Source of the DNA: a virus
Lineage: Duplodnaviria; Heunggongvirae; Uroviricota; Caudoviricetes
IMG/VR virus record: IMGVR_UViG_3300013903_000037
Direction: 5' to 3' (one strand)
Length of the DNA stretch: 5,791 bases
A program made the translations under genes and the position numbers. Positions 1 through 5,791 of the stretch are shown one piece after another. The notes under the pieces are model-generated. The model did not search any database. It was not told the origin of the DNA and saw only the letters and a program-made list of their open reading frames with translations. Each line of letters starts with the position of its first letter. The first letter of the stretch is position 1.

Positions 1-13
1 AACTCTGTTATTC

Positions 14-134
14 TCTGTAGTCGTGTAATTACTCGAAGAGAGAGCGGCTAAAGCTCAATTACACTCTGCTTTCCTCGTGTAATTTCACTAAGCCTCAATA
101 CAATTCCACTTCCTACTTCTGTAGTCGTGTAATT
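14..134. repeat. Iteron-like repeat array: exact 17-bp direct repeat TCTGTAGTCGTGTAATT at 14-30 and 118-134; third copy of the 10-bp core TCGTGTAATT at 75-84; inverted copy of the 8-bp core (AATTACAC) at 57-64
   Basis: Read directly from the sequence. Direct copies are spaced about 50-54 bp apart in a stretch with no ORF on either strand. Function (origin iterons or operator array) is inference. Confidence 0.7.
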
Positions 135-180
135 GTTTTCGGTGGAAAAGCCAGAGGCGACACCGAAAGAGAATTCTGAT

Positions 181-250
181 CTTATTAATCTTATCTATCT
201 TAGTTAATCTTCTTACTTTATCTTACTTACTTTATCTACTTTATTGTTAA
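181..250. repeat. AT-rich, pyrimidine-rich low-complexity tract with 10-bp periodic tandem units (TCTTACTTTA at 211-220, TCTTACTTAC at 221-230, then TTTATCTACT)
   Basis: Read directly. Strong strand asymmetry (T/C on + strand) and no ORF. Possible DNA-unwinding or bending element next to the iteron array. Confidence 0.55.
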
Positions 251-280
251 TAATAGCTTTATAAGCTCTGTGTAGCTCTC

Positions 281-338
281 TGACGCAAGAAACCGCATTC
301 AGAAAGGGAATCACCTTAGAAAAGTGTTCTTTGCGTCA
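281..338. promoter_or_regulatory. Imperfect inverted repeat TGACGCAAGA (281-290) / TCTTTGCGTCA (328-338), arms about 37 bp apart
   Basis: Read directly. Lies upstream of the first gene. Could be paired half-sites for a DNA-binding protein or a long-range stem. Function unknown. Confidence 0.35.
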
Positions 339-463
339 TAATGTGTTTTATGAAGGATTCAGAGGTGTTTCATAACAGAAATGTATTGAGGCATATTTTT
401 CTAAGCATTACCCAAATATATACGATGACTTTGATATTCCCTTTTAAAAAGTAAGGAGGACTA

Positions 464-742
464 TTGATACAGTATTTAATAAAAAGCAAAGTAGACAGAA
501 TTCAGTGTAATGACACAGGAAAACGCATCTACGAGACACTTGCTTACCTCTATAAAGGAAAGCCAACACCGCTAAAATATAGCGATGTGTTACATCGAGC
601 AGGGTGCTCTGAAGCTGGTTTAAAATTCTGGCTGAAACAGCTATCAAACTTCGGTGTTATAGAGATTAAAGAATTATCTTTCTCTACATTCAATCTCAAA
701 AGACTTTCTAAAGAAATAGAATTCATCTATTCCACTCTCTAA
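464..742 (+). CDS. Small (92 aa) putative winged-helix/HTH DNA-binding protein, TTG start
   Basis: ORF track 464..742. Strong Shine-Dalgarno AAGGAGGA at 453-460, though spacing to the TTG at 464 is short (3-4 nt). No in-frame ATG or GTG exists near the 5' end, so TTG is the only canonical start. The central segment (KYSDVLHRAGCSEAGLKFWLKQLSNFGVIE) has the look of a helix-turn-helix with a wing. Sits next to the repeat array. Confidence 0.5.
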   Translation: MIQYLIKSKVDRIQCNDTGKRIYETLAYLYKGKPTPLKYSDVLHRAGCSEAGLKFWLKQLSNFGVIEIKELSFSTFNLKRLSKEIEFIYSTL

Positions 743-783
743 AATCTCTCTATGTAATTAAAATATAAAAGGAAAACATTATT

Positions 784-900
784 ATGATAGTAGCTATGTA
801 TTGGTTATTGTTCTTTCTCACGTTAGAAGCATATTTCGGGGTGTTTTCCTTTAAAAGAAAAGGAAAAATAAATGGCAAAAAGAAAAAACAACGTTGTTAA
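784..900 (+). CDS. Candidate 38-aa small membrane peptide (MIVAMYWLLFFLTLEAYFGVFSFKRKGKINGKKKKQRC): hydrophobic N-terminal segment plus polybasic tail
   Basis: Hand translation; not in the ORF track because it is short. ATG at 784 preceded by AAAGGA (769-774) at about 9 nt spacing. Overlaps the start of the 872..1282 gene in another frame, so it could also be a chance ORF. Confidence 0.25.
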   Translation: MIVAMYWLLFFLTLEAYFGVFSFKRKGKINGKKKKQRC

Positions 901-1282
901 GAAAATCGGTGATTCAGCTTCTCTTCTAAGTAAACCTAAATCTATTCTAAGACGTAAAGACTTTAAAGAGCTAGTTACGCTCACCAAGCAAAATAGCGCC
1001 CCTGGCGAATGGAAAACAGAGATCATAGAACATTCTCCCTCTGTGCCTTGTGGAGATGAATATATCGCATTACAAGAAATCTTATCTTCAACACCTGGCG
1101 TGTTCTGGAAACCTAAAAAAAGAAAAGAGTATATCGTTGATAGCTCTGATTTACGCAAATACCAGATTTTAGGATTTGAAGACTATAACCACTACGTCGG
1201 TTATCTCGCCACAAATGGCCTAAATAATTTAGTTCCTGAATTCCAAATTTTAGATAATGCTGATCACTATGGAGACTTTTAA
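872..1282 (+). CDS. Hypothetical protein, 136 aa, strongly basic N-terminus (MAKRKNNVVKK...RRKDFK), possibly nucleic-acid binding
   Basis: ORF track. ATG at 872 preceded by a purine-rich AAGGAA (860-865). Stop TAA at 1280-1282 lies one base before the next gene's ATG. Same strand as all other supported genes. Confidence 0.6.
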   Translation: MAKRKNNVVKKIGDSASLLSKPKSILRRKDFKELVTLTKQNSAPGEWKTEIIEHSPSVPCGDEYIALQEILSSTPGVFWKPKKRKEYIVDSSDLRKYQILGFEDYNHYVGYLATNGLNNLVPEFQILDNADHYGDF

Positions 1283-1283
1283 T

Positions 1284-1622
1284 ATGAACAAAAACACATA
1301 TGACACAATTTACTCACTAATTAATTATTATGAGGATGATTACCTCCTGCCTTTAAACCGCGCTGAACTTGAAGCATACAAAGAAAACACGCCAGCGGCA
1401 CTAAATGAGGCGTTTAAACACTGGGATTTAGCTGTGAATGCCTTTGAGCACCTCTCTAAGCGTGTAGAGATGCTCTGTAAGCGTGAAAACGCATACCTGA
1501 CAGCCGATCAGATATGGGAGCTATCAAACTGGATAGAAGATATTGAATCTGATGTTCGCTATGTAGGAGATGGACTTGTTGAACTAGCTCAACGCTTAGG
1601 CGCTACTATCACAGAAGAATAA
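1284..1622 (+). CDS. Hypothetical acidic protein, 112 aa (track ORF 1257..1622 trimmed to the ATG with the best ribosome-binding site)
   Basis: GGAGA at 1271-1275, 8 nt upstream of ATG 1284. The earlier in-frame ATGs at 1257 and 1269 lack a ribosome-binding site and overlap the previous gene. By residue counting the protein has a clear excess of Asp/Glu over Lys/Arg, and its composition suggests mostly helix. Stop TAA at 1620-1622. Confidence 0.6.
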   Translation: MNKNTYDTIYSLINYYEDDYLLPLNRAELEAYKENTPAALNEAFKHWDLAVNAFEHLSKRVEMLCKRENAYLTADQIWELSNWIEDIESDVRYVGDGLVELAQRLGATITEE

Positions 1623-1651
1623 AAAAAGCAACAAAAAAGTTGTAAAATATC

Positions 1652-1680
1652 TTGACATTTCATCTATTGTATGTTAATAT
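1652..1680 (+). promoter_or_regulatory. Near-consensus sigma70-type promoter: -35 TTGACA (1652-1657), 17-bp spacer, extended -10 TGtTAATAT (1672-1680), A/T-rich UP-like tract upstream (1621-1650)
   Basis: Read directly. Predicted transcription start around 1687-1689. Confidence 0.65.
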
Positions 1681-1686
1681 AATTAT

Positions 1687-1910
1687 ATGGGGGTGATTAT
1701 TTTTCCTTTATTGGTTCGATATTAAAAATTCTTCCTGTCATTAAAGGGGAGTAAAATCTCCGCTCCCCGCTTCTCCTCCTTAAGTAAATACTGTGTCATT
1801 ATTACCTCTTTTTTCCTTTGTTATGCATACATCTTGGAGTATGCATAACATAGGGTAATTACATAGGTATGAGTTAATAAAAGGCGGCTTTAAATGCTGC
1901 CTTTTATTTT
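1687..1910 (+). ncRNA. Putative structured non-coding transcript or leader of about 220 nt, running from the predicted start of the 1652-1680 promoter to the intrinsic terminator at 1879-1910
   Basis: No plausible ORF with a ribosome-binding site in this interval. Contains hairpin GGGGAG(1746-1751)/CTCCCC(1763-1768), a single-stranded CU-rich anti-Shine-Dalgarno-like stretch TCCTCCTTA (1774-1782), a perfect 10-bp inverted repeat TTATGCATAC(1821-1830)/GTATGCATAA(1839-1848), and the terminator hairpin. Existence of a discrete RNA is inference. Confidence 0.3.
1879..1910 (+). terminator. Intrinsic (rho-independent) terminator: stem AAAAGGCGGC / GCTGCCTTTT with 7-nt loop, followed by TTTTATTTT
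   Basis: Read directly: 6 G/C-rich pairs including one G-U, extended by A-U pairs, then a T-run. Moderate predicted strength, so it may act as a partial or regulated terminator. Confidence 0.55.
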
Positions 1911-1972
1911 GCCCGTTATGCAACTTAAAAGTTGTATTTCTTACTTTAAACAAGGTAACAAGGTTTATATAA

Positions 1973-2185
1973 ATGTTGTTCTTAAATGATAAAGAGCAAA
2001 TCATCAAGTATAAAGATGAAATGCTGAAAATTAATCCACAAATTACCGAAATGGTAGCTAAATACGCTGGGTGTTCTGTCGAGGAAGTAGAAAGATGTGT
2101 TGAAAAATATTTTTCTCCTTCTTCTCCGTCTACACCTTCCCTTAATGAATTAATCAAATTAAAAGCTAAGGAGATTACTAAATGA
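1973..2185 (+). CDS. Hypothetical protein, 70 aa
   Basis: ORF track. Weak ribosome-binding site (AAGG at about 1961-1964). Stop TGA (2183-2185) overlaps the ATG (2182-2184) of the next gene, which suggests translational coupling. Start codon uncertain; internal ATGs exist. Confidence 0.45.
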   Translation: MLFLNDKEQIIKYKDEMLKINPQITEMVAKYAGCSVEEVERCVEKYFSPSSPSTPSLNELIKLKAKEITK

Positions 2186-2550
2186 TTATTGATTTAGACA
2201 CTCTGTTTCCAGGTCGAAATCGAAAGACTTTCACAGATATTGTAAGTTATTGTACTGATCCGTTTGCCTCTGTAGAAAGCAAGGTTTTTGCTTCTCTTCC
2301 TGCTGATGTTGAGTGCGGCGACTTGATCACCAGCACTGGCGCTAAATATGAATCAGGAGATGATATCTATGTTGTTATGAGTGAATTTGTAACGGCTGGA
2401 GAAAACAAGCCTGTAGATGTGCTACGTAGCAATGCTGGGCTTGTATGCATCAAAGCTGATGCCCTGAATGCTGTAAGTGAAGCAGCAAAAACAGCATTAA
2501 TTAAAAAAGGCTTTCAGCTTGAAGGCTTTAATACGGTTTTCACTTCTTAA
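2182..2550 (+). CDS. Hypothetical protein, 122 aa, immediately upstream of the major capsid gene (positional candidate for a scaffolding, decoration or other head-associated protein)
   Basis: ORF track. Good ribosome-binding site TAAGGAG (2167-2173), 8 nt before ATG 2182. Function is assigned from position only. Confidence 0.6.
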   Translation: MIIDLDTLFPGRNRKTFTDIVSYCTDPFASVESKVFASLPADVECGDLITSTGAKYESGDDIYVVMSEFVTAGENKPVDVLRSNAGLVCIKADALNAVSEAAKTALIKKGFQLEGFNTVFTS

Positions 2551-2568
2551 TAAAAGGAATAATAATAA

Positions 2569-3597
2569 ATGATTCTAGGTAATGATTACGTTGATTTAGC
2601 TCCTTTGTTCTCTGCGCATAGCACTAGAAACTATCTACTGTCTACCCTTGACTTCACTGATCCGGTGGGCGTTAGTTCTCATAAAGTAGCTGTTTCCCAG
2701 CTTGTCGAAAGCAACGAATCTCTCTTTAACAAAGAGACAAGCCGTTTTAGTTCTGAACACAATGTTACTAAGCGTGAACAAGGTAAAGAATGGCTTATCG
2801 AAATCCCGTATTTTCTTCGTGAAGATGTGATCCGTCCTTCTGATGTTCAAGGCAAACGTAAGTCTGGCACTGATTTTCAGGAAACACTCACTGATATTTA
2901 TGCGGAATATATCGCTAAACACCACGTAGCGTATCAGCGCACTAAAGAGAGCGTGCTGGCGGCTTCTTTGTTCTCTGGCAAAACTTACACGCCTAAAACT
3001 GATGATGTGTTAATTGAGTGGAGCAAGCTGTTTAACGTATCACCAATGAAAACCACGGTGAACGCTTCCAGCACGGACACCACGAAGATTTTTAAAGAAT
3101 TTGATCAGATTGCTACTAACATTTTTGAAATCACACAAAGCCAGGCGTCAGCGGTAGAAAGAATTGTTGTTTTCTGTAAACCTGACGCCTTCTCTGCAAT
3201 TCGATTCTCTGCTGGTATGGCAAACGCATTCCAGTATGTAAGCCCACTGGAAGAGGGGAACGTTGTGTATCAGCGTCGTGACCTGCTGCCAGGAGTGACA
3301 GCGTTCACTATTCCAGGAACTAACATCGATGTTGTTAAACTGGTAGATCCGCTACATCTGGCACATATGACCGCAGACGCTGTAGCGGTTCCGAAGTTTG
3401 CTAAAGGCTCTAACGTATATCAGAACATCTACGGGGCTGCTTCCAGCACCTTTGAACTGATTAATGCCGCTCCTGCTGAGGTGTATAGCTATAGCTATGA
3501 ATCTTCTCGTGGTGATGCTGTTAACGTTGTTACAGAGAATAGCCAGATGGTTGTAAACCACGGCGTTGGCTTCTCCGTTCAAATCACTGTTAAATAA
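2569..3597 (+). CDS. Major capsid protein, 342 aa, HK97-fold, apparently of the T7 gp10-like family
   Basis: ORF track. Ribosome-binding site AAAGGA (2553-2558). Recognition is from memory of T7 gp10A (345 aa), not a search: window VVFCKPDAFSAIRF (residues about 200-213) against remembered T7 VFYCDPDSYSAIL (about 206-218); window IEIPYFLREDVIRPSDV against T7 ITIDGLLTADVLIYDIE; similar length and C-terminal character. Followed by a strong terminator, as is typical of highly expressed capsid genes. Confidence 0.7.
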   Translation: MILGNDYVDLAPLFSAHSTRNYLLSTLDFTDPVGVSSHKVAVSQLVESNESLFNKETSRFSSEHNVTKREQGKEWLIEIPYFLREDVIRPSDVQGKRKSGTDFQETLTDIYAEYIAKHHVAYQRTKESVLAASLFSGKTYTPKTDDVLIEWSKLFNVSPMKTTVNASSTDTTKIFKEFDQIATNIFEITQSQASAVERIVVFCKPDAFSAIRFSAGMANAFQYVSPLEEGNVVYQRRDLLPGVTAFTIPGTNIDVVKLVDPLHLAHMTADAVAVPKFAKGSNVYQNIYGAASSTFELINAAPAEVYSYSYESSRGDAVNVVTENSQMVVNHGVGFSVQITVK

Positions 3598-3616
3598 TAT
3601 TTTTAACGTGTAATAG

Positions 3617-3652
3617 AGGCGTGGCGTGTATTCACGCTTCGCCTTTTTTTTT
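3617..3652 (+). terminator. Strong intrinsic terminator: stem AGGCGTGGCGTG / CACGCTTCGCCT (two G/C-rich helices around a small internal loop), loop TATT, followed by a run of 9 T
   Basis: Read directly. Located 20 nt after the capsid stop codon. Confidence 0.75.
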
Positions 3653-3686
3653 ATTTATTTTTTAAATTTTGAGAGGTGATTAAAAT

Positions 3687-3887
3687 ATGGAAGTGATTTT
3701 GAAATCAAAAAATGGTGTACACGTACATTTAGATGCTAATGATTCTAGAGGCTTGTTAAATCTGAAATATCTCTGTTCTCTCCTAGATGTTCCATATGAA
3801 GGAGTAAAAGCCCGTATGTTCAGATTAAACGAGAGTATTGATCAAGCTCTACACCATTTCTTAAGCAAAGAAGGTGGTAAAAAATGA
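3687..3887 (+). CDS. Hypothetical protein, 66 aa
   Basis: ORF track. Ribosome-binding site GAGGTGA (3673-3679), 7 nt before ATG 3687. Stop TGA at 3885-3887, 19 nt before the next gene. Confidence 0.55.
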   Translation: MEVILKSKNGVHVHLDANDSRGLLNLKYLCSLLDVPYEGVKARMFRLNESIDQALHHFLSKEGGKK

Positions 3888-3906
3888 TTAATAAGGGGGA
3901 TTTTAA

Positions 3907-5791
3907 ATGTTAGAAATTAACACTTCTAAAATTAAGAACACAGTTACATTTAGTGTAGATAAAGACAGCTTGAAAAAAGCGAAAGACTCTATTACAGGCT
4001 TAAAGGAATTCGCAGAAAATATCAAGCCAGCTAAATTAAGATTTGATATTGTCACTAAAGGCTATAAGAAAGCACAAAGTGAAGTAGACAAGATTGCTCA
4101 ACAGAAAGCTAAAACAGAAAAGCAGAATCAAAGAGCACAAGCTGCCGCAGCAAGAGCACAGGCAAGGCAACAGGCACAAATAGCAGCACGCAAGGAGAAA
4201 GCAGACTTAAAACTGTTAGACGTTGGATCAAGCATTAGTGCAATGCACCGTCTCTCTGTAGCGGAACAATACAAAGCTATTGCACAGGCTAGAGAAATTG
4301 CCCTCCAATATGAAAGAGGCGCTATTAGTCTGGCACGTATGAATAGCCAGATGAAACGCCTACAACAGCAACAACGTAAGATTAATGGCAACAGAAAAGC
4401 TCAATTAGCCCCCGTTAAGGGAGGAGGATCAGGGAATGCCGCCACTATGGGCGCTCTGTTATTTGGAGGCGCTACGGCTGCTGCTGGCGTGATGGCTGTT
4501 AGTAAAGCGTCGGAGTTTGTTAGTAGCAGTTTCGCTAACGCAGACACCCAAGGGGAGCTAATCCAACGTGCAAAGCTGGGTGGTGTAGACGTTAACCAGA
4601 TGTATAATATTACAGAATGGGCGTATAAAAACGGCGTTGACTCTATGATGGGTGATCAAGGGGCTAGAAAATACCTAGATCAGATGAAAGATGTTAGGGA
4701 ACGTGCCGCAAAATCCTATAGTGAAGCTGAATTGGTGAAAGACAAGAAAACCGGAAAATCAGGGAAATGGAAAGGCGGTGATAACGCTATTAATGAACTT
4801 CTAAACATCGGAGTTATTAACAAAAGCGACCTTAAAAAATTTGCTGATAATCCAGCCGGATTAATTTCTAAGGCTGTTAATGGAATGATGAAAAAAGGGT
4901 TTTCAGATTCTCAAATTGGACAACGTTTAGAAGACCTGGGCGATGATTTGATGCTTACATCAAAATATTGGCAACGTTCCGTTAAAGATGTACAAGAAAG
5001 TATTAACCAGCAAAAAGCCTCTGGAAAATGGCTAACAGAAACACAGCAAGACTCTATTGTTAAATTCAGAGAACTAAACAGACAGCTTTCACAGCTTTCT
5101 GATGCAAGACAAGTAGCATTCGTAGACGGCTTTATGAAATCTCTTGATCCAAAAGTAACGGAAGAGTTTTTGAAAAACCTTTCTAATCTCACTCCGTATT
5201 TTACGAAGCTGGGAGAAGCTACAGGAAGTCTCTTTGAGGCCATTATGAAGATTGTAAACTGGTTTAATCGTAATGATGATAAGACAGATGCTATTCAGAA
5301 AAATTTAGGTGATGCACCGCCATTAAGCAATGACGGAATGAAACAGAATCTTTCTAATCTCGTTCCTGATAAATATAAAGGCGCTGGCACTGCAACAACT
5401 ACACCTGATAATAGTCATTCTCTCTTTAACACGATTAAGGGATTGCTTTTCGATGATAATTCTTCTGTGTCAGATGTAAAAATGTCAGTCAGCGAAGCAC
5501 CGATAACCAATCTCAAACAGGGTGCTTTAAATAATCTTGCAATGACAACTCCGGCTTATAATTTATCTCCTGTGTTTAATCTGAATCCTACATTTGAAGT
5601 GGTAACAGAGGTTCCTCTTACTATTAATTCTGACACATCAAGATTAAGCGATTATGTGGATTTTACAGCGAGAGCAAGTCGGGATAGCTTCTTGAAATCA
5701 TTAACATTAACCAGCTTATCAGGACACGAAGATTATCAGGAAATAAAAGGCGTAAGATATCATCAGACAGATAAAGAACTTGTGCAGAAAG
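3907..5791 (+). CDS. Large virion-type protein, 3'-partial (at least 628 codons, no stop before the window end): N-terminal Q/A/R/K-rich predicted coiled-coil, Gly/Ala-rich hydrophobic glycine-zipper-like segment (residues about 172-199, nt 4420-4503), then a mixed Ser/Asn/Thr-rich region. Candidate internal core, ejection or tape-measure-like protein.
   Basis: Hand translation of frame 1 from ATG 3907 gives an uninterrupted reading frame to the end of the window. Absent from the ORF track, presumably because it has no stop inside the window. Ribosome-binding site AAGGGGGA (3893-3900), 6 nt before the ATG. Composition is typical of phage tape-measure or internal virion proteins. Confidence 0.7.
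   Translation, partial: MLEINTSKIKNTVTFSVDKDSLKKAKDSITGLKEFAENIKPAKLRFDIVTKGYKKAQSEVDKIAQQKAKTEKQNQRAQAAAARAQARQQAQIAARKEKADLKLLDVGSSISAMHRLSVAEQYKAIAQAREIALQYERGAISLARMNSQMKRLQQQQRKINGNRKAQLAPVKGGGSGNAATMGALLFGGATAAAGVMAVSKASEFVSSSFANADTQGELIQRAKLGGVDVNQMYNITEWAYKNGVDSMMGDQGARKYLDQMKDVRERAAKSYSEAELVKDKKTGKSGKWKGGDNAINELLNIGVINKSDLKKFADNPAGLISKAVNGMMKKGFSDSQIGQRLEDLGDDLMLTSKYWQRSVKDVQESINQQKASGKWLTETQQDSIVKFRELNRQLSQLSDARQVAFVDGFMKSLDPKVTEEFLKNLSNLTPYFTKLGEATGSLFEAIMKIVNWFNRNDDKTDAIQKNLGDAPPLSNDGMKQNLSNLVPDKYKGAGTATTTPDNSHSLFNTIKGLLFDDNSSVSDVKMSVSEAPITNLKQGALNNLAMTTPAYNLSPVFNLNPTFEVVTEVPLTINSDTSRLSDYVDFTARASRDSFLKSLTLTSLSGHEDYQEIKGVRYHQTDKELVQK

What the first reader, a model, noticed from the sequence alone, without database searches (positions are those of the whole stretch)
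784..900. Possible unannotated 38-aa membrane peptide overlapping the start of the 136-aa gene
ATG 784 with an upstream AAAGGA opens a short ORF encoding a roughly 23-residue hydrophobic segment followed by a polybasic tail (KRKGKINGKKKKQRC). This architecture resembles small membrane-active peptides such as type I toxins, holin-like peptides or regulatory leader peptides. It is below the ORF-track size cutoff and overlaps the next gene by 29 nt in another frame.
Basis: seen in the sequence. Interest (0 to 1): 0.4.

Follow-up and report, generated by a model that had tools for sequence, protein, structure and literature searches.

The report
Conserved small membrane-peptide gene, masked start
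The 38-codon reading frame is very likely a real small gene for a membrane peptide, kept across E. coli, Klebsiella and Enterobacter phage-like islands, and a conserved RNA helix hides its ribosome-binding site, but its function is still unknown.

Summary
ATG 784 to TAA 900 encodes 38 aa, AAAGGA lies at 768-773, and the ORF overlaps the 136-aa gene by 29 nt. In one sequence this is weak evidence: about 5% of shuffles give a similar ORF. Comparison makes it strong.

- **Frame conservation:** 86 of 91 related loci keep an ATG-started ORF of 34-41 codons at the same place and frame. This holds in Klebsiella and Enterobacter islands whose 136-aa homologue is only about 50% identical. The other 5 loci carry a different upstream module.
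- **Coding signature:** codon position 3 varies most. Pooled pN/pS is 0.57, against 0.87 and 0.92 in the shifted frames, and about 0.32 in four close pairs (p = 3e-4). Indels in the hydrophobic part are in frame. The antisense ORF is not conserved.
- **Product:** an N-terminal hydrophobic, aromatic-rich helix followed by basic residues. The far tail is poorly constrained.
- **RNA helix:** the ORF's own Shine-Dalgarno region (768-780) pairs with 840-852 inside the ORF. This 10-13 bp helix occurs in every lineage, with two compensatory pairs. In E. coli and Klebsiella the same anti-SD can instead pair with the next gene's SD (859-867).

No homology to toxins, holins or any other family was found, and no antisense RNA signal. 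RefSeq omits the ORF; many GenBank records call it "hypothetical protein". Function is inferred only.

The parts
464..742 (+). Upstream 92-aa gene (TTG start here, ATG in most relatives; strong AAGGAGG SD). It belongs to the replication/regulation module and always accompanies the small ORF.
   Evidence: PGAP annotates it in relatives. It is conserved at 92 aa in 11 of the 15 sequences translated, 91 aa in 2, and truncated in 2 (L005, L016). It is swapped out together with the small ORF in the L069/L073-type loci.
768..780 (+). SD of the small ORF (AAAGGAAAACAUU), which is also the 5' arm of the conserved long-range helix.
   Evidence: Inverted repeat I8, 768-778/842-852, 100% complementary. 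The 13-bp helix appears in the MFE fold of 760-910. The equivalent helix is found in all 44 unique versions, with covariation.
784..900 (+). Small ORF of 38 codons plus stop. Residues 2-23 (nt 787-852) form the hydrophobic, aromatic-rich helix. Residues 24-38 (nt 853-897) form the basic tail.
840..852 (+). Anti-SD element (GGUGUUUUCCUUU) inside the ORF. It is the 3' arm of the long-range helix, or alternatively the 5' arm (844-852) of a local hairpin with SD2.
   Evidence: for pairing with SD1. for pairing with SD2. The nucleotide motif GUUUYCC is kept even where the amino acids differ (VSP versus SFP).
859..867 (+). SD of the 136-aa gene (AAAGGAAAA). It lies inside the small ORF and can pair with 844-852.
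   Evidence: P(paired) about 0.99 versus about 0.6 in shuffles in this lineage. Direct repeat D3, 762-776/853-867.
872..1282 (+). 136-aa gene of unknown function. Its first 29 nt are overlapped by the small ORF in another frame.
   Evidence: Homologues of about 50% identity occur in Klebsiella, Enterobacter, Raoultella and Leclercia. There are no family or PDB hits. The AF2 model has low confidence.

Best explanation
The ORF 784-900 is a genuine small-protein gene that is missing from RefSeq. It belongs to a family of integrative, phage-derived (satellite-like) islands of Enterobacteriaceae.

Shown:
- The reading frame, its ATG and a GGAAA-type SD are conserved across diverged lineages.
- The N-terminal 15-23 residues evolve under purifying selection as an uncharged, aromatic-rich hydrophobic helix followed by basic residues.
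- The ORF always ends 20-38 nt inside the next gene.
- Its own SD is complementary to a segment about 60 nt downstream within the ORF in every lineage, with compensatory changes.

Inferred:
- The product is a single-pass or membrane-embedded inner-membrane peptide with the N terminus out and the C terminus in (positive-inside rule).
- The SD1:anti-SD helix keeps its translation low or conditional, for example limited to nascent transcripts or to mRNAs already carrying ribosomes.
- Ribosomes translating it pass through the anti-SD, SD2 and ATG2, so its translation is mechanically linked to initiation of the 136-aa gene.
- In the E. coli and Klebsiella lineages the anti-SD can pair with either SD1 or SD2, which would make a two-state switch.

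My committed guess for the peptide's role is a dose-limited, membrane-active effector of the island's induced cycle. That role is not shown.
For: - Frame conservation: 86 of 91 loci have a 34-41-codon ATG-ORF in the same frame and place, as 47 unique nt versions and 42 peptides. It was first seen in the Klebsiella and Enterobacter loci.
- Coding signature: differences per codon position are 0.41 / 0.34 / 0.57. Pooled pN/pS is 0.57 in frame against 0.87 and 0.92 in the shifted frames. Four independent close pairs give pS 0.32, pN 0.10, Fisher p = 3e-4. Many columns are purely synonymous within Klebsiella, including multi-step Leu changes. The length differences placed in the peptide alignment are whole codons (1, 2, 5 or 6 codons).
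- The antisense ORF that shares the wobble phase is broken by stops in other lineages.
- Chance of such an ORF is 5-12% per lineage, product about 1e-7.
- Helix: duplex dG is -10 to -15.5 against about -4 to -6 in shuffles, in all 44 versions. 90.3% of cells are paired against 42-69% when slid. Two pairs show compensatory change (AU/GC and AU/UA). Covariation is 0.234 against 0.147, reached by 0 of 500 shuffles.
- P(SD1 paired) is 0.88 in the window's version.
- SD2 hairpin in E. coli and Klebsiella.
- AF2 predicts a helix at 2-29, with pLDDT 89 and 83 over the first 20 residues.
- Hydropathy, aromatic content and tail charge.
Against: - There is no expression, proteomic or ribosome-profiling evidence.
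- The SD is weak (GGA/GGGA), and in the E. coli lineage it sits 10 nt from the ATG.
- The hydrophobic stretch is only about 16-17 residues in Enterobacter-type peptides, and L077 carries Arg and His inside it.
- The C-terminal tail is not constrained as protein: frame-shifted acidic tails and one in-frame fusion occur.
- Five loci lack the ORF yet keep the downstream gene.
- pN/pS is only moderately below 1 between distant lineages.
- The helix alignment was anchored on the complementary motifs, so the invariant core pairs carry no weight, and the compensatory changes largely follow one lineage split.
- RNAalifold on a naive alignment found no SD2 hairpin, and SD2 masking is absent in Enterobacter-type loci.
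- In several E. coli variants the ensemble favours the SD2 hairpin and leaves SD1 open.
Confidence: 0.55

Rival explanations
1. A purely cis-acting leader ORF. Only the act of translating it matters, by opening the structure around the 136-aa gene's RBS or re-delivering ribosomes there. The peptide itself would have no function, as with tap-repA or repY-repZ in IncFII/IncI plasmids (own knowledge).
For: The ORF always ends 20-38 nt past ATG2, and further downstream in frame-shifted variants. SD2 lies inside the ORF and is hairpin-masked in E. coli and Klebsiella. The tail sequence and frame are variable. The anti-SD nucleotides are better conserved than the amino acids they encode. The ORF is dispensable when another gene ends next to ATG2.
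Against: Purifying selection acts on the N-terminal peptide: pN/pS is 0.32-0.57, with synonymous-only polymorphic columns. Hydrophobic and aromatic character persists despite saturated synonymous change. In-frame indels occur. SD2 masking is absent in Enterobacter-type loci.
Confidence: 0.2
2. A type I toxin: a membrane-depolarising peptide whose mRNA is kept silent by SD sequestration and by an antitoxin RNA not yet seen.
For: A small hydrophobic helix with a basic tail. SD sequestration by an anti-SD within the mRNA is a hallmark of hok, tisB and aapA1-type mRNAs (own knowledge) and is conserved here.
Against: No antisense promoter or terminator is predicted near the ORF in three lineages. 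The structured RNA candidate at 1688-1915 and its counterparts show no significant complementarity to the ORF's initiation region. The ORF is embedded between co-directional genes 20-41 nt apart rather than forming its own unit. No toxin family hit was found.
Confidence: 0.1
3. Not a gene: a chance ORF in a conserved intergenic regulatory RNA/DNA segment. T-rich sequence reads as hydrophobic and A-rich RBS sequence reads as Lys/Arg.
For: About 5% of shuffles of a single sequence give such an ORF. The basic tail is indeed the A-rich RBS/5' CDS read in another frame. PGAP never calls it. RNA-level constraint exists in part of it.
Against: The frame is open in 86 of 91 loci across three or more genera, while the other two sense frames and the antisense frames are not all open. 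There is codon-position periodicity and pN is below pS. Length differences in the peptide alignment are whole codons. The ATG and SD are conserved.
Confidence: 0.07
4. A holin, antiholin or lysis-timing peptide of the island.
For: One hydrophobic helix with a charged C-terminal tail. Met1 and Met5 in the E. coli lineage superficially resemble a dual start.
Against: At 34-41 aa it is far below usual holin sizes (own knowledge). No endolysin or spanin was recognised among the window's proteins or the few flanking ones scanned, and none is annotated in the islands of L001 and L098. The second Met is not conserved. No holin family hit was found.
Confidence: 0.05

Closest known systems
Type I toxin mRNAs (hok/sok, tisB/istR-1, aapA1/isoA1)
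   Same: A short hydrophobic peptide with a charged end. The ribosome-binding site is sequestered by an intramolecular anti-SD, so translation is tightly limited.
   Different: No antitoxin RNA signal, no stand-alone transcription unit and no sequence homology. The ORF sits inside an operon and overlaps the next gene's start. Toxicity is untested.
Leader-peptide translational coupling in plasmid replication control (tap-repA of R1; repY-repZ of ColIb-P9)
   Same: A short ORF just upstream whose translation runs into the start region of the next gene. That gene's RBS can be structured, and the locus lies beside a replication module.
   Different: Here the peptide's N-terminal sequence is under purifying selection and is hydrophobic. 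The leader's own SD is masked by a long-range helix. No antisense RNA is seen. SD2 masking is lineage-specific.
Small inner-membrane proteins of enterobacteria (e.g. AcrZ, MgtS, MgrB, CydX, PmrR; Hemm/Storz-type small proteins)
   Same: 50 aa or fewer, one hydrophobic helix, basic cytoplasmic end, and routinely missed by annotation pipelines.
   Different: No homology. It is encoded on a mobile phage-like island rather than the core genome, its partner or target is unknown, and it has an unusual masked RBS and gene overlap.
Long-distance RBS masking in phage RNAs (MS2 maturation gene; lambda cIII alternative structures)
   Same: The start region is closed by pairing with a distant segment, which implies translation only in a kinetic or conditional window.
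   Different: A different genome type and gene. Here the masking element lies inside the regulated ORF itself and can also pair with the next gene's SD.

Membership tests
Type I toxin-antitoxin toxin | Small (<60 aa) hydrophobic, membrane-type peptide | tested here: met
   38 aa. There are 15-23 uncharged N-terminal residues in all but the L077 variant (Arg5, His10). KD is 1.4-2.1 over 15-17 residues, and 5-8 residues are aromatic in the same seven peptides (1 in L077). AF2 predicts a helix at 2-29.
Type I toxin-antitoxin toxin | Antisense or trans-encoded antitoxin RNA complementary to the toxin mRNA | tested here: not met
   No minus-strand promoter-like or terminator-like site was found near the ORF in the window, L018 or L021. 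Duplexes between the ORF's initiation region and the nearby structured intergenic RNA candidate are no better than shuffles. These are consensus scans only; RNA-seq is needed for certainty.
Type I toxin-antitoxin toxin | Toxin SD sequestered by intramolecular pairing | tested here: met
   A 10-13 bp SD1:anti-SD helix in all 44 versions, with covariation.
Type I toxin-antitoxin toxin | Sequence membership of a known toxin family (Hok/Gef, Ldr, TisB, Ibs, ShoB, Fst, DinQ and others) | tested here: not met
   No Pfam, NCBIfam, PADLOC or PHROG hit at E<=0.1. The HMM search of 1.84e9 representatives returned 15 matches at E<=0.001 and nothing beyond them; those whose sequences I had retrieved are variants of this peptide.
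Type I toxin-antitoxin toxin | Growth arrest or membrane depolarisation on expression | not testable with these tools
   Needs an experiment.
Holin | Genetic linkage to an endolysin / lysis cassette | tested here: not met
   The window proteins have no lysozyme, amidase or spanin hits. The rest of the island consists of capsid, TMP-like, Dit-like and integrase genes.
Holin | TMD(s) plus charged C-terminal tail, typical size about 60-150 aa, holin family hit | tested here: not met
   The architecture is superficially similar, but the peptide is 34-41 aa and has no holin family hit.
Leader-peptide translational coupling (tap/repA type) | Short ORF directly upstream that terminates at or within the start region of the regulated gene | tested here: met
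   It ends 20-38 nt after ATG2 in all 86 loci.
Leader-peptide translational coupling (tap/repA type) | Downstream RBS masked by structure that leader translation would open | tested here: inconclusive
   P(SD2 paired) is about 0.99 in most E. coli and Klebsiella versions but 0.02-0.8 in Enterobacter-type versions. RNAalifold gave no consensus hairpin.
Leader-peptide translational coupling (tap/repA type) | Peptide sequence itself unconstrained | tested here: not met
   The N-terminal part is under purifying selection. Only the tail is unconstrained.
Enterobacterial small membrane proteins (<=50 aa) | Conserved ORF of <=50 codons with start, SD and one predicted hydrophobic helix | tested here: met
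Enterobacterial small membrane proteins (<=50 aa) | Protein detected and membrane-localised | not testable with these tools
   Needs tagging and fractionation or ribosome profiling.

The most novel reading that the evidence does not exclude
The peptide is a dose-gated, toxin-like membrane effector of an undescribed family of enterobacterial phage satellites. These islands carry their own lambda-E-like capsid, TMP-like and Dit-like genes but no portal or terminase. A three-element riboregulator (SD1 / shared anti-SD / SD2) would make translation of the peptide and of the next gene mutually dependent or mutually exclusive, without any antisense RNA.
Probability: 0.2. Interest if true: 0.7.

Novelty: new member of a known kind. 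Interest (0 to 1): 0.5.

Why it matters
Small membrane proteins are systematically missed. Here RefSeq omits an ORF carried on more than 1000 contigs in the protein collection, with matching DNA in about 300 of 5,426 complete E. coli genomes and relatives in Klebsiella and Enterobacter.

This case offers a compact, testable unit of about 130 nt. It contains a peptide under selection, a conserved helix that masks the peptide's own start, and an overlap with the next gene's start. If the peptide is membrane-active, it could explain how a poorly understood class of capsid-encoding islands manipulates the host or a helper phage. If it is only a coupler, it is a clean natural example of relay translation control without an antisense RNA. 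In either case the ORF deserves annotation.

Tried and rejected
- The genome-contig scan with the 136-aa protein gave only one extra locus, Escherichia sp..
- Phage genomes have no match to the window beyond 71 nt at its end, and no tblastn match to the 136-aa protein.
- Rfam gave only sub-threshold chance hits, none in 700-950.
- Pfam, PHROGs, NCBIfam, PADLOC and PDB sequence searches found nothing for the peptide, and nothing useful for the 92-aa and 136-aa neighbours.
- The AF2 model of the 136-aa protein has pLDDT 51, so I ran no fold search.
- RNAalifold on a MAFFT alignment of the SD2 region gave no consensus hairpin. SD2 masking is therefore treated as lineage-specific.
- I considered the idea that the putative sRNA region at 1688-1915 is a trans antitoxin. 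Duplex energies are no better than shuffles.
- I considered the antisense ORF 750-878 as the real gene, because its wobble phase coincides with the sense ORF. It is rejected because it carries stops in Klebsiella and Enterobacter lineages.
- The promoter-like site 758-785, which would start transcription after the ATG, is 9/12 and no more frequent than in shuffles, so I ignored it.
- The homologue search with the 92-aa protein found only E. coli relatives.
- Literature searches for the peptide strings and for the island type returned nothing relevant.
- Programmed frameshifting that would fuse the peptide to the 136-aa protein needs a +1 shift. A-runs vary from 4 to 7 and no conserved shift site exists. 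It is not excluded but unlikely. One database variant is fused by an indel.

Full report
**1. Observation**

The window is a piece of an E. coli chromosomal island. It is 100% identical over 1-5726 to NZ_CP166713.1, and related copies occur in 624 of 5,426 complete E. coli genomes.

The ORF listing gives ORF 784..900 (+), ATG, 38 aa: MIVAMYWLLFFLTLEAYFGVFSFKRKGKINGKKKKQRC. AAAGGA lies at 768-773. The next gene starts at ATG 872, so the overlap is 29 nt in another frame.

On its own the ORF is weak evidence. The window contains 39 ORFs of at least 30 aa. About 4.7% of dinucleotide shuffles of the upstream 130 nt produce an ATG-ORF of at least 30 codons that crosses the downstream ATG.

**2. Context**

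The window encodes, in order:
- a 92-aa protein (464-742);
- the small ORF (784-900);
- a 136-aa protein (872-1282);
- a 112-aa protein;
- a 350-nt gap;
- 70-aa and 122-aa proteins;
- a lambda-E-type major capsid protein (PF03864, E = 6e-14);
- a 66-aa protein;
- a tape-measure-like protein (phrog_16051, E = 1e-52).

In the chromosome these are followed by a Dit-like tail protein (PF21821) and a tyrosine integrase. Relatives carry an HTH_36 protein upstream. Klebsiella relatives carry an SF2-helicase-like protein instead. No portal, terminase or lysis genes are seen.

The element therefore looks like an uncharacterised satellite-like or defective phage island, and it sits at different integration sites in different strains. 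RefSeq/PGAP annotates the 92-aa and 136-aa genes but never the small ORF. Many GenBank/UniRef records do list exactly this peptide as 'hypothetical/Uncharacterised protein'.

**3. Is it a gene?**

Within E. coli the region is 92-100% identical, and the ORF is intact at 38-39 aa in all 14 sampled copies. That alone proves little.

The decisive material came from distant homologues of the 136-aa protein, about 50-58% identical, in Klebsiella, Enterobacter, Raoultella and Leclercia. I found 91 loci with enough upstream sequence.
- 86 have an ATG-started ORF of 34-41 codons in the same position. It starts 73-91 nt before the downstream ATG, in the same relative frame, with a GGAAA(A)C or GGGAAAC SD 7-10 nt upstream, and it ends 20-38 nt inside the downstream gene.
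- These 86 loci give 47 unique nucleotide versions and 42 peptides.
- Examples: MIIMLYWTLFIYITVYYSGMFSVKRNNNNEQKTT (Klebsiella), MITALWWWALLYGLYVMTRQGVSPLRGMNGKKRAKSD and MIIAIYWLFAFYAVWTLTRKHGSFPLRGINGTKRTQ (Enterobacter-type).
- The 5 exceptions share a recombinant junction. A different module (a 257-aa protein plus a 153-aa HTH_36 protein) replaces both the 92-aa gene and the small ORF, and ends 1 nt before 'ATGAATGGG'.

Substitution pattern over codons 2-26 in 12 representative sequences:
- Differences per codon position are 0.41, 0.34 and 0.57.
- Pooled pN/pS is 0.57 in the ORF frame, against 0.87 and 0.92 when the same alignment is read in the shifted frames.
- Four phylogenetically separate close pairs give pS = 0.32 and pN = 0.10 (ratio 0.32, Fisher p = 3e-4).
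- Within Klebsiella many columns vary only synonymously (Thr ACA/ACG/ACT, Phe, Ile, Tyr, and Leu TTA/CTT/CTG).
- In the peptide alignment, length differences in the hydrophobic part fall as whole codons: 1, 2, 5 or 6 codons.

The antisense ORF 750-878 shares the wobble phase and could mimic this periodicity. It is interrupted by stops in the Klebsiella and Enterobacter lineages.

The per-lineage chance of such an ORF is 5-12%, and the product over six lineages is about 1e-7. This is a loose bound because the lineages are related, although synonymous sites are near saturation between them.

I conclude the ORF is protein-coding with high probability, about 0.9.

**4. The product**

- The conserved part is the N terminus, M-I-[IVT]-[AM]-[MLI]-[YW]-W-x-[LFA]-[FLA]-[FIL]-[YL]..., followed by K/R-rich residues.
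- In seven of the eight representative peptides it has 15-23 uncharged residues and 5-8 aromatic residues. The L077 variant has Arg5 and His10 inside the stretch. KD is 1.4-2.1 over 15-17 residues, and the summed Hessa dG is roughly 0 +/- 1.6 kcal/mol in the seven (2.3-5.4 in L077).
- AF2 with a 22-sequence alignment gives one helix at 2-29, with pLDDT 89 and 83 over the first 20 residues and a disordered tail.
- The positive-inside rule (established knowledge) predicts N-out/C-in topology. This is an inference.
- The far tail is not constrained as protein. Natural variants have frame-shifted, acidic tails (...TRNEWDEKNEIQLNG), one variant is fused in frame to the downstream protein, and one lacks the anti-SD segment.
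- The 'polybasic tail' is largely the A-rich RBS and Lys/Arg-rich 5' coding sequence of the next gene read in another frame. It is only +2 in Klebsiella L018.
- The family is small and closed. A profile HMM search of 1.84e9 representative proteins returned 15 matches at E<=0.001; those whose sequences I had retrieved are variants of this peptide. About 80 clusters at 90% identity occur in E. coli, Klebsiella and Cronobacter (the Enterobacter-type peptides come from the loci), none with an informative name.
- There are no Pfam, PHROG, NCBIfam, PADLOC or PDB matches. The peptide strings do not occur in the searchable literature.

**5. RNA-level features (new here)**

The repeat finder shows an 11-nt perfect inverted repeat, 768-778 / 842-852. 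The MFE fold of 760-910 extends it to 13 bp, 768-780 with 840-852. That pairs the small ORF's own SD and spacer with a segment inside its codons 19-23.

The equivalent duplex exists in all 44 unique versions from all lineages. It is 7-13 bp (10-13 bp in all but the L071/L075 type), with dG of -10 to -15.5 kcal/mol against -4 to -6 for shuffled partners, and the fraction of shuffles as good is 0-0.025.

I tested it on an anchored, gapless alignment of 24 distinct versions (A6):

| Measure | Observed | Control |
|---|---|---|
| Cells forming standard pairs | 90.3% | 42-69% with the partner slid by 1-3 columns |
| Covariation score | 0.234 | 0.147 in shuffles, reached by 0 of 500 |
| Pair col 5/32 | AU:12, GC:10, GU:2 | compensatory change on both sides |
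| Pair col 10/27 | AU:13, UA:7 | compensatory change on both sides |

Two caveats apply. The alignment was anchored on the complementary motifs, so the invariant core pairs are uninformative. The compensatory changes follow largely one lineage split.

An additional hint of RNA-level constraint is that the motif GUUUCCC is kept in Enterobacter-type loci even where paired indels change the encoded residues (G-V-S-P against G-S-F-P).

In the E. coli and Klebsiella lineages the same anti-SD (844-852) is also complementary to the SD of the 136-aa gene (859-867). P(SD2 paired) is about 0.99 in most E. coli and Klebsiella versions (0.30-0.86 in a few Klebsiella-type ones), against about 0.5-0.6 in shuffles. 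In Enterobacter-type loci this is not so (0.02-0.8), and RNAalifold found no consensus hairpin.

In the ensemble, the window's version has SD1 paired with P = 0.88. Other E. coli variants shift toward the SD2 hairpin. This is consistent with, but does not prove, a two-state arrangement.

**6. How it most likely works**

Shown:
- a conserved coding frame;
- a selected hydrophobic N-terminal helix;
- a conserved helix that covers the ORF's SD;
- an ORF that always reads through the next gene's SD and ATG.

Inferred:
- The peptide inserts in the inner membrane.
- Its synthesis is kept low or conditional by SD masking. One possibility is initiation only before the anti-SD is transcribed, or on mRNAs whose anti-SD is being traversed by a ribosome. 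The second case would give self-reinforcing on/off behaviour.
- Its translation modulates initiation of the 136-aa gene, by unmasking SD2 where it is masked or by occluding it.

The biological role is unknown. My committed guess is a dose-limited, membrane-active effector used during the island's induced cycle.

The main rival is a pure coupling leader ORF. That rival explains the overlap, the variable tail and the dispensability in recombinants. It does not explain the amino-acid-level selection on the helix.

**7. Comparison with known systems**

- Like type I toxin mRNAs, it combines a hydrophobic mini-peptide with SD sequestration. Membership fails on the antitoxin RNA, on stand-alone organisation and on homology.
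- Like tap-repA or repY-repZ leader coupling, it overlaps the next start. But the peptide is constrained, and SD2 masking is lineage-specific.
- It is not a holin: it is too small, there is no lysis cassette and there is no family hit.
- It fits the generic class of enterobacterial small membrane proteins of 50 aa or fewer, as a new family carried on a mobile element.

**8. Verdict**

This is a real but uncharacterised small gene with an unusual, conserved translational-control architecture. I rate it as a new member of a known kind, of moderate interest (0.5). The most novel reading not excluded is a toxin-like effector gated by an SD1/anti-SD/SD2 riboregulator in a new satellite family, with probability about 0.2.

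Noticed in passing
window 1652-1915: A strong sigma-70-like promoter (TTGACA-17-TAATAT with an extended-10 TG, 10/12) lies at 1652-1680. It is followed by a 228-nt region (1688-1915) that folds far better than shuffles (MFE -67.5 kcal/mol, z = -5.08, 0 of 200 shuffles as good) and ends in a terminator-like hairpin with a U-run (about 1881-1912). This is a candidate sRNA or structured leader between the 112-aa and 70-aa genes. It has no Rfam family and no significant complementarity to the small ORF's start region.
   Followed up: partly
window 13-134: Three copies of TCTGTAGTCGTGTAATT / ..CTCGTGTAATT lie at 14-30, 68-84 and 118-134 (spacing 54 and 50 nt). The first sits inside a 20-nt palindrome (13-44). 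They look like iterons or operators at the head of the early region.
   Followed up: no
window ~379-399: The window's copy (the same as E. coli CEA601S) appears to carry a deletion of about 1.5 kb relative to most relatives. Window 1-399 matches a region further upstream in L002/L008/L009, and 379-470 matches the 3' end of the ~230-aa HTH_36 gene. The 63-aa and 56-aa genes and most of the HTH_36 gene are therefore missing. The 92-aa gene also uses TTG here instead of ATG.
   Followed up: partly
window 5721-5791: Identity to E. coli chromosomal copies stops at 5726. The last 71 nt are 100% identical to an unannotated 'Bacteriophage sp.' contig from human faeces (MT835527.1). This is a mosaic junction inside the tape-measure-like gene.
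   Followed up: no
L008-L010 (next to thiM/TPP riboswitch), matching window ~465-834: Several hundred E. coli genomes, including O157:H7, carry a decayed remnant of the same module beside thiM. It ends inside the small ORF (at about window 834), at an IS-related 'HTH-like domain' gene.
   Followed up: partly
window 2182-5791 and L001 17777-19849: The island combines a lambda-E-like capsid protein, a possible D-like 122-aa protein, a tape-measure-like protein, a Dit-like protein and an integrase, with no recognisable portal, terminase, protease or lysis genes. It is integrated at different sites: next to a P22-like prophage and the vat island in CEA601S, and next to tRNA-Gly/ETT2 in M21170. It may be an undescribed satellite or decoy-type island.
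   Followed up: partly
database variants of the peptide (P0177, P0192, P0220, P0230, P0243): Natural variants exist with a frame-shifted acidic tail, with a deletion between ACGAG repeats that removes the anti-SD, and with an in-frame fusion to the downstream 136-aa-type protein. They are useful natural 'mutants' for testing the model.
   Followed up: no
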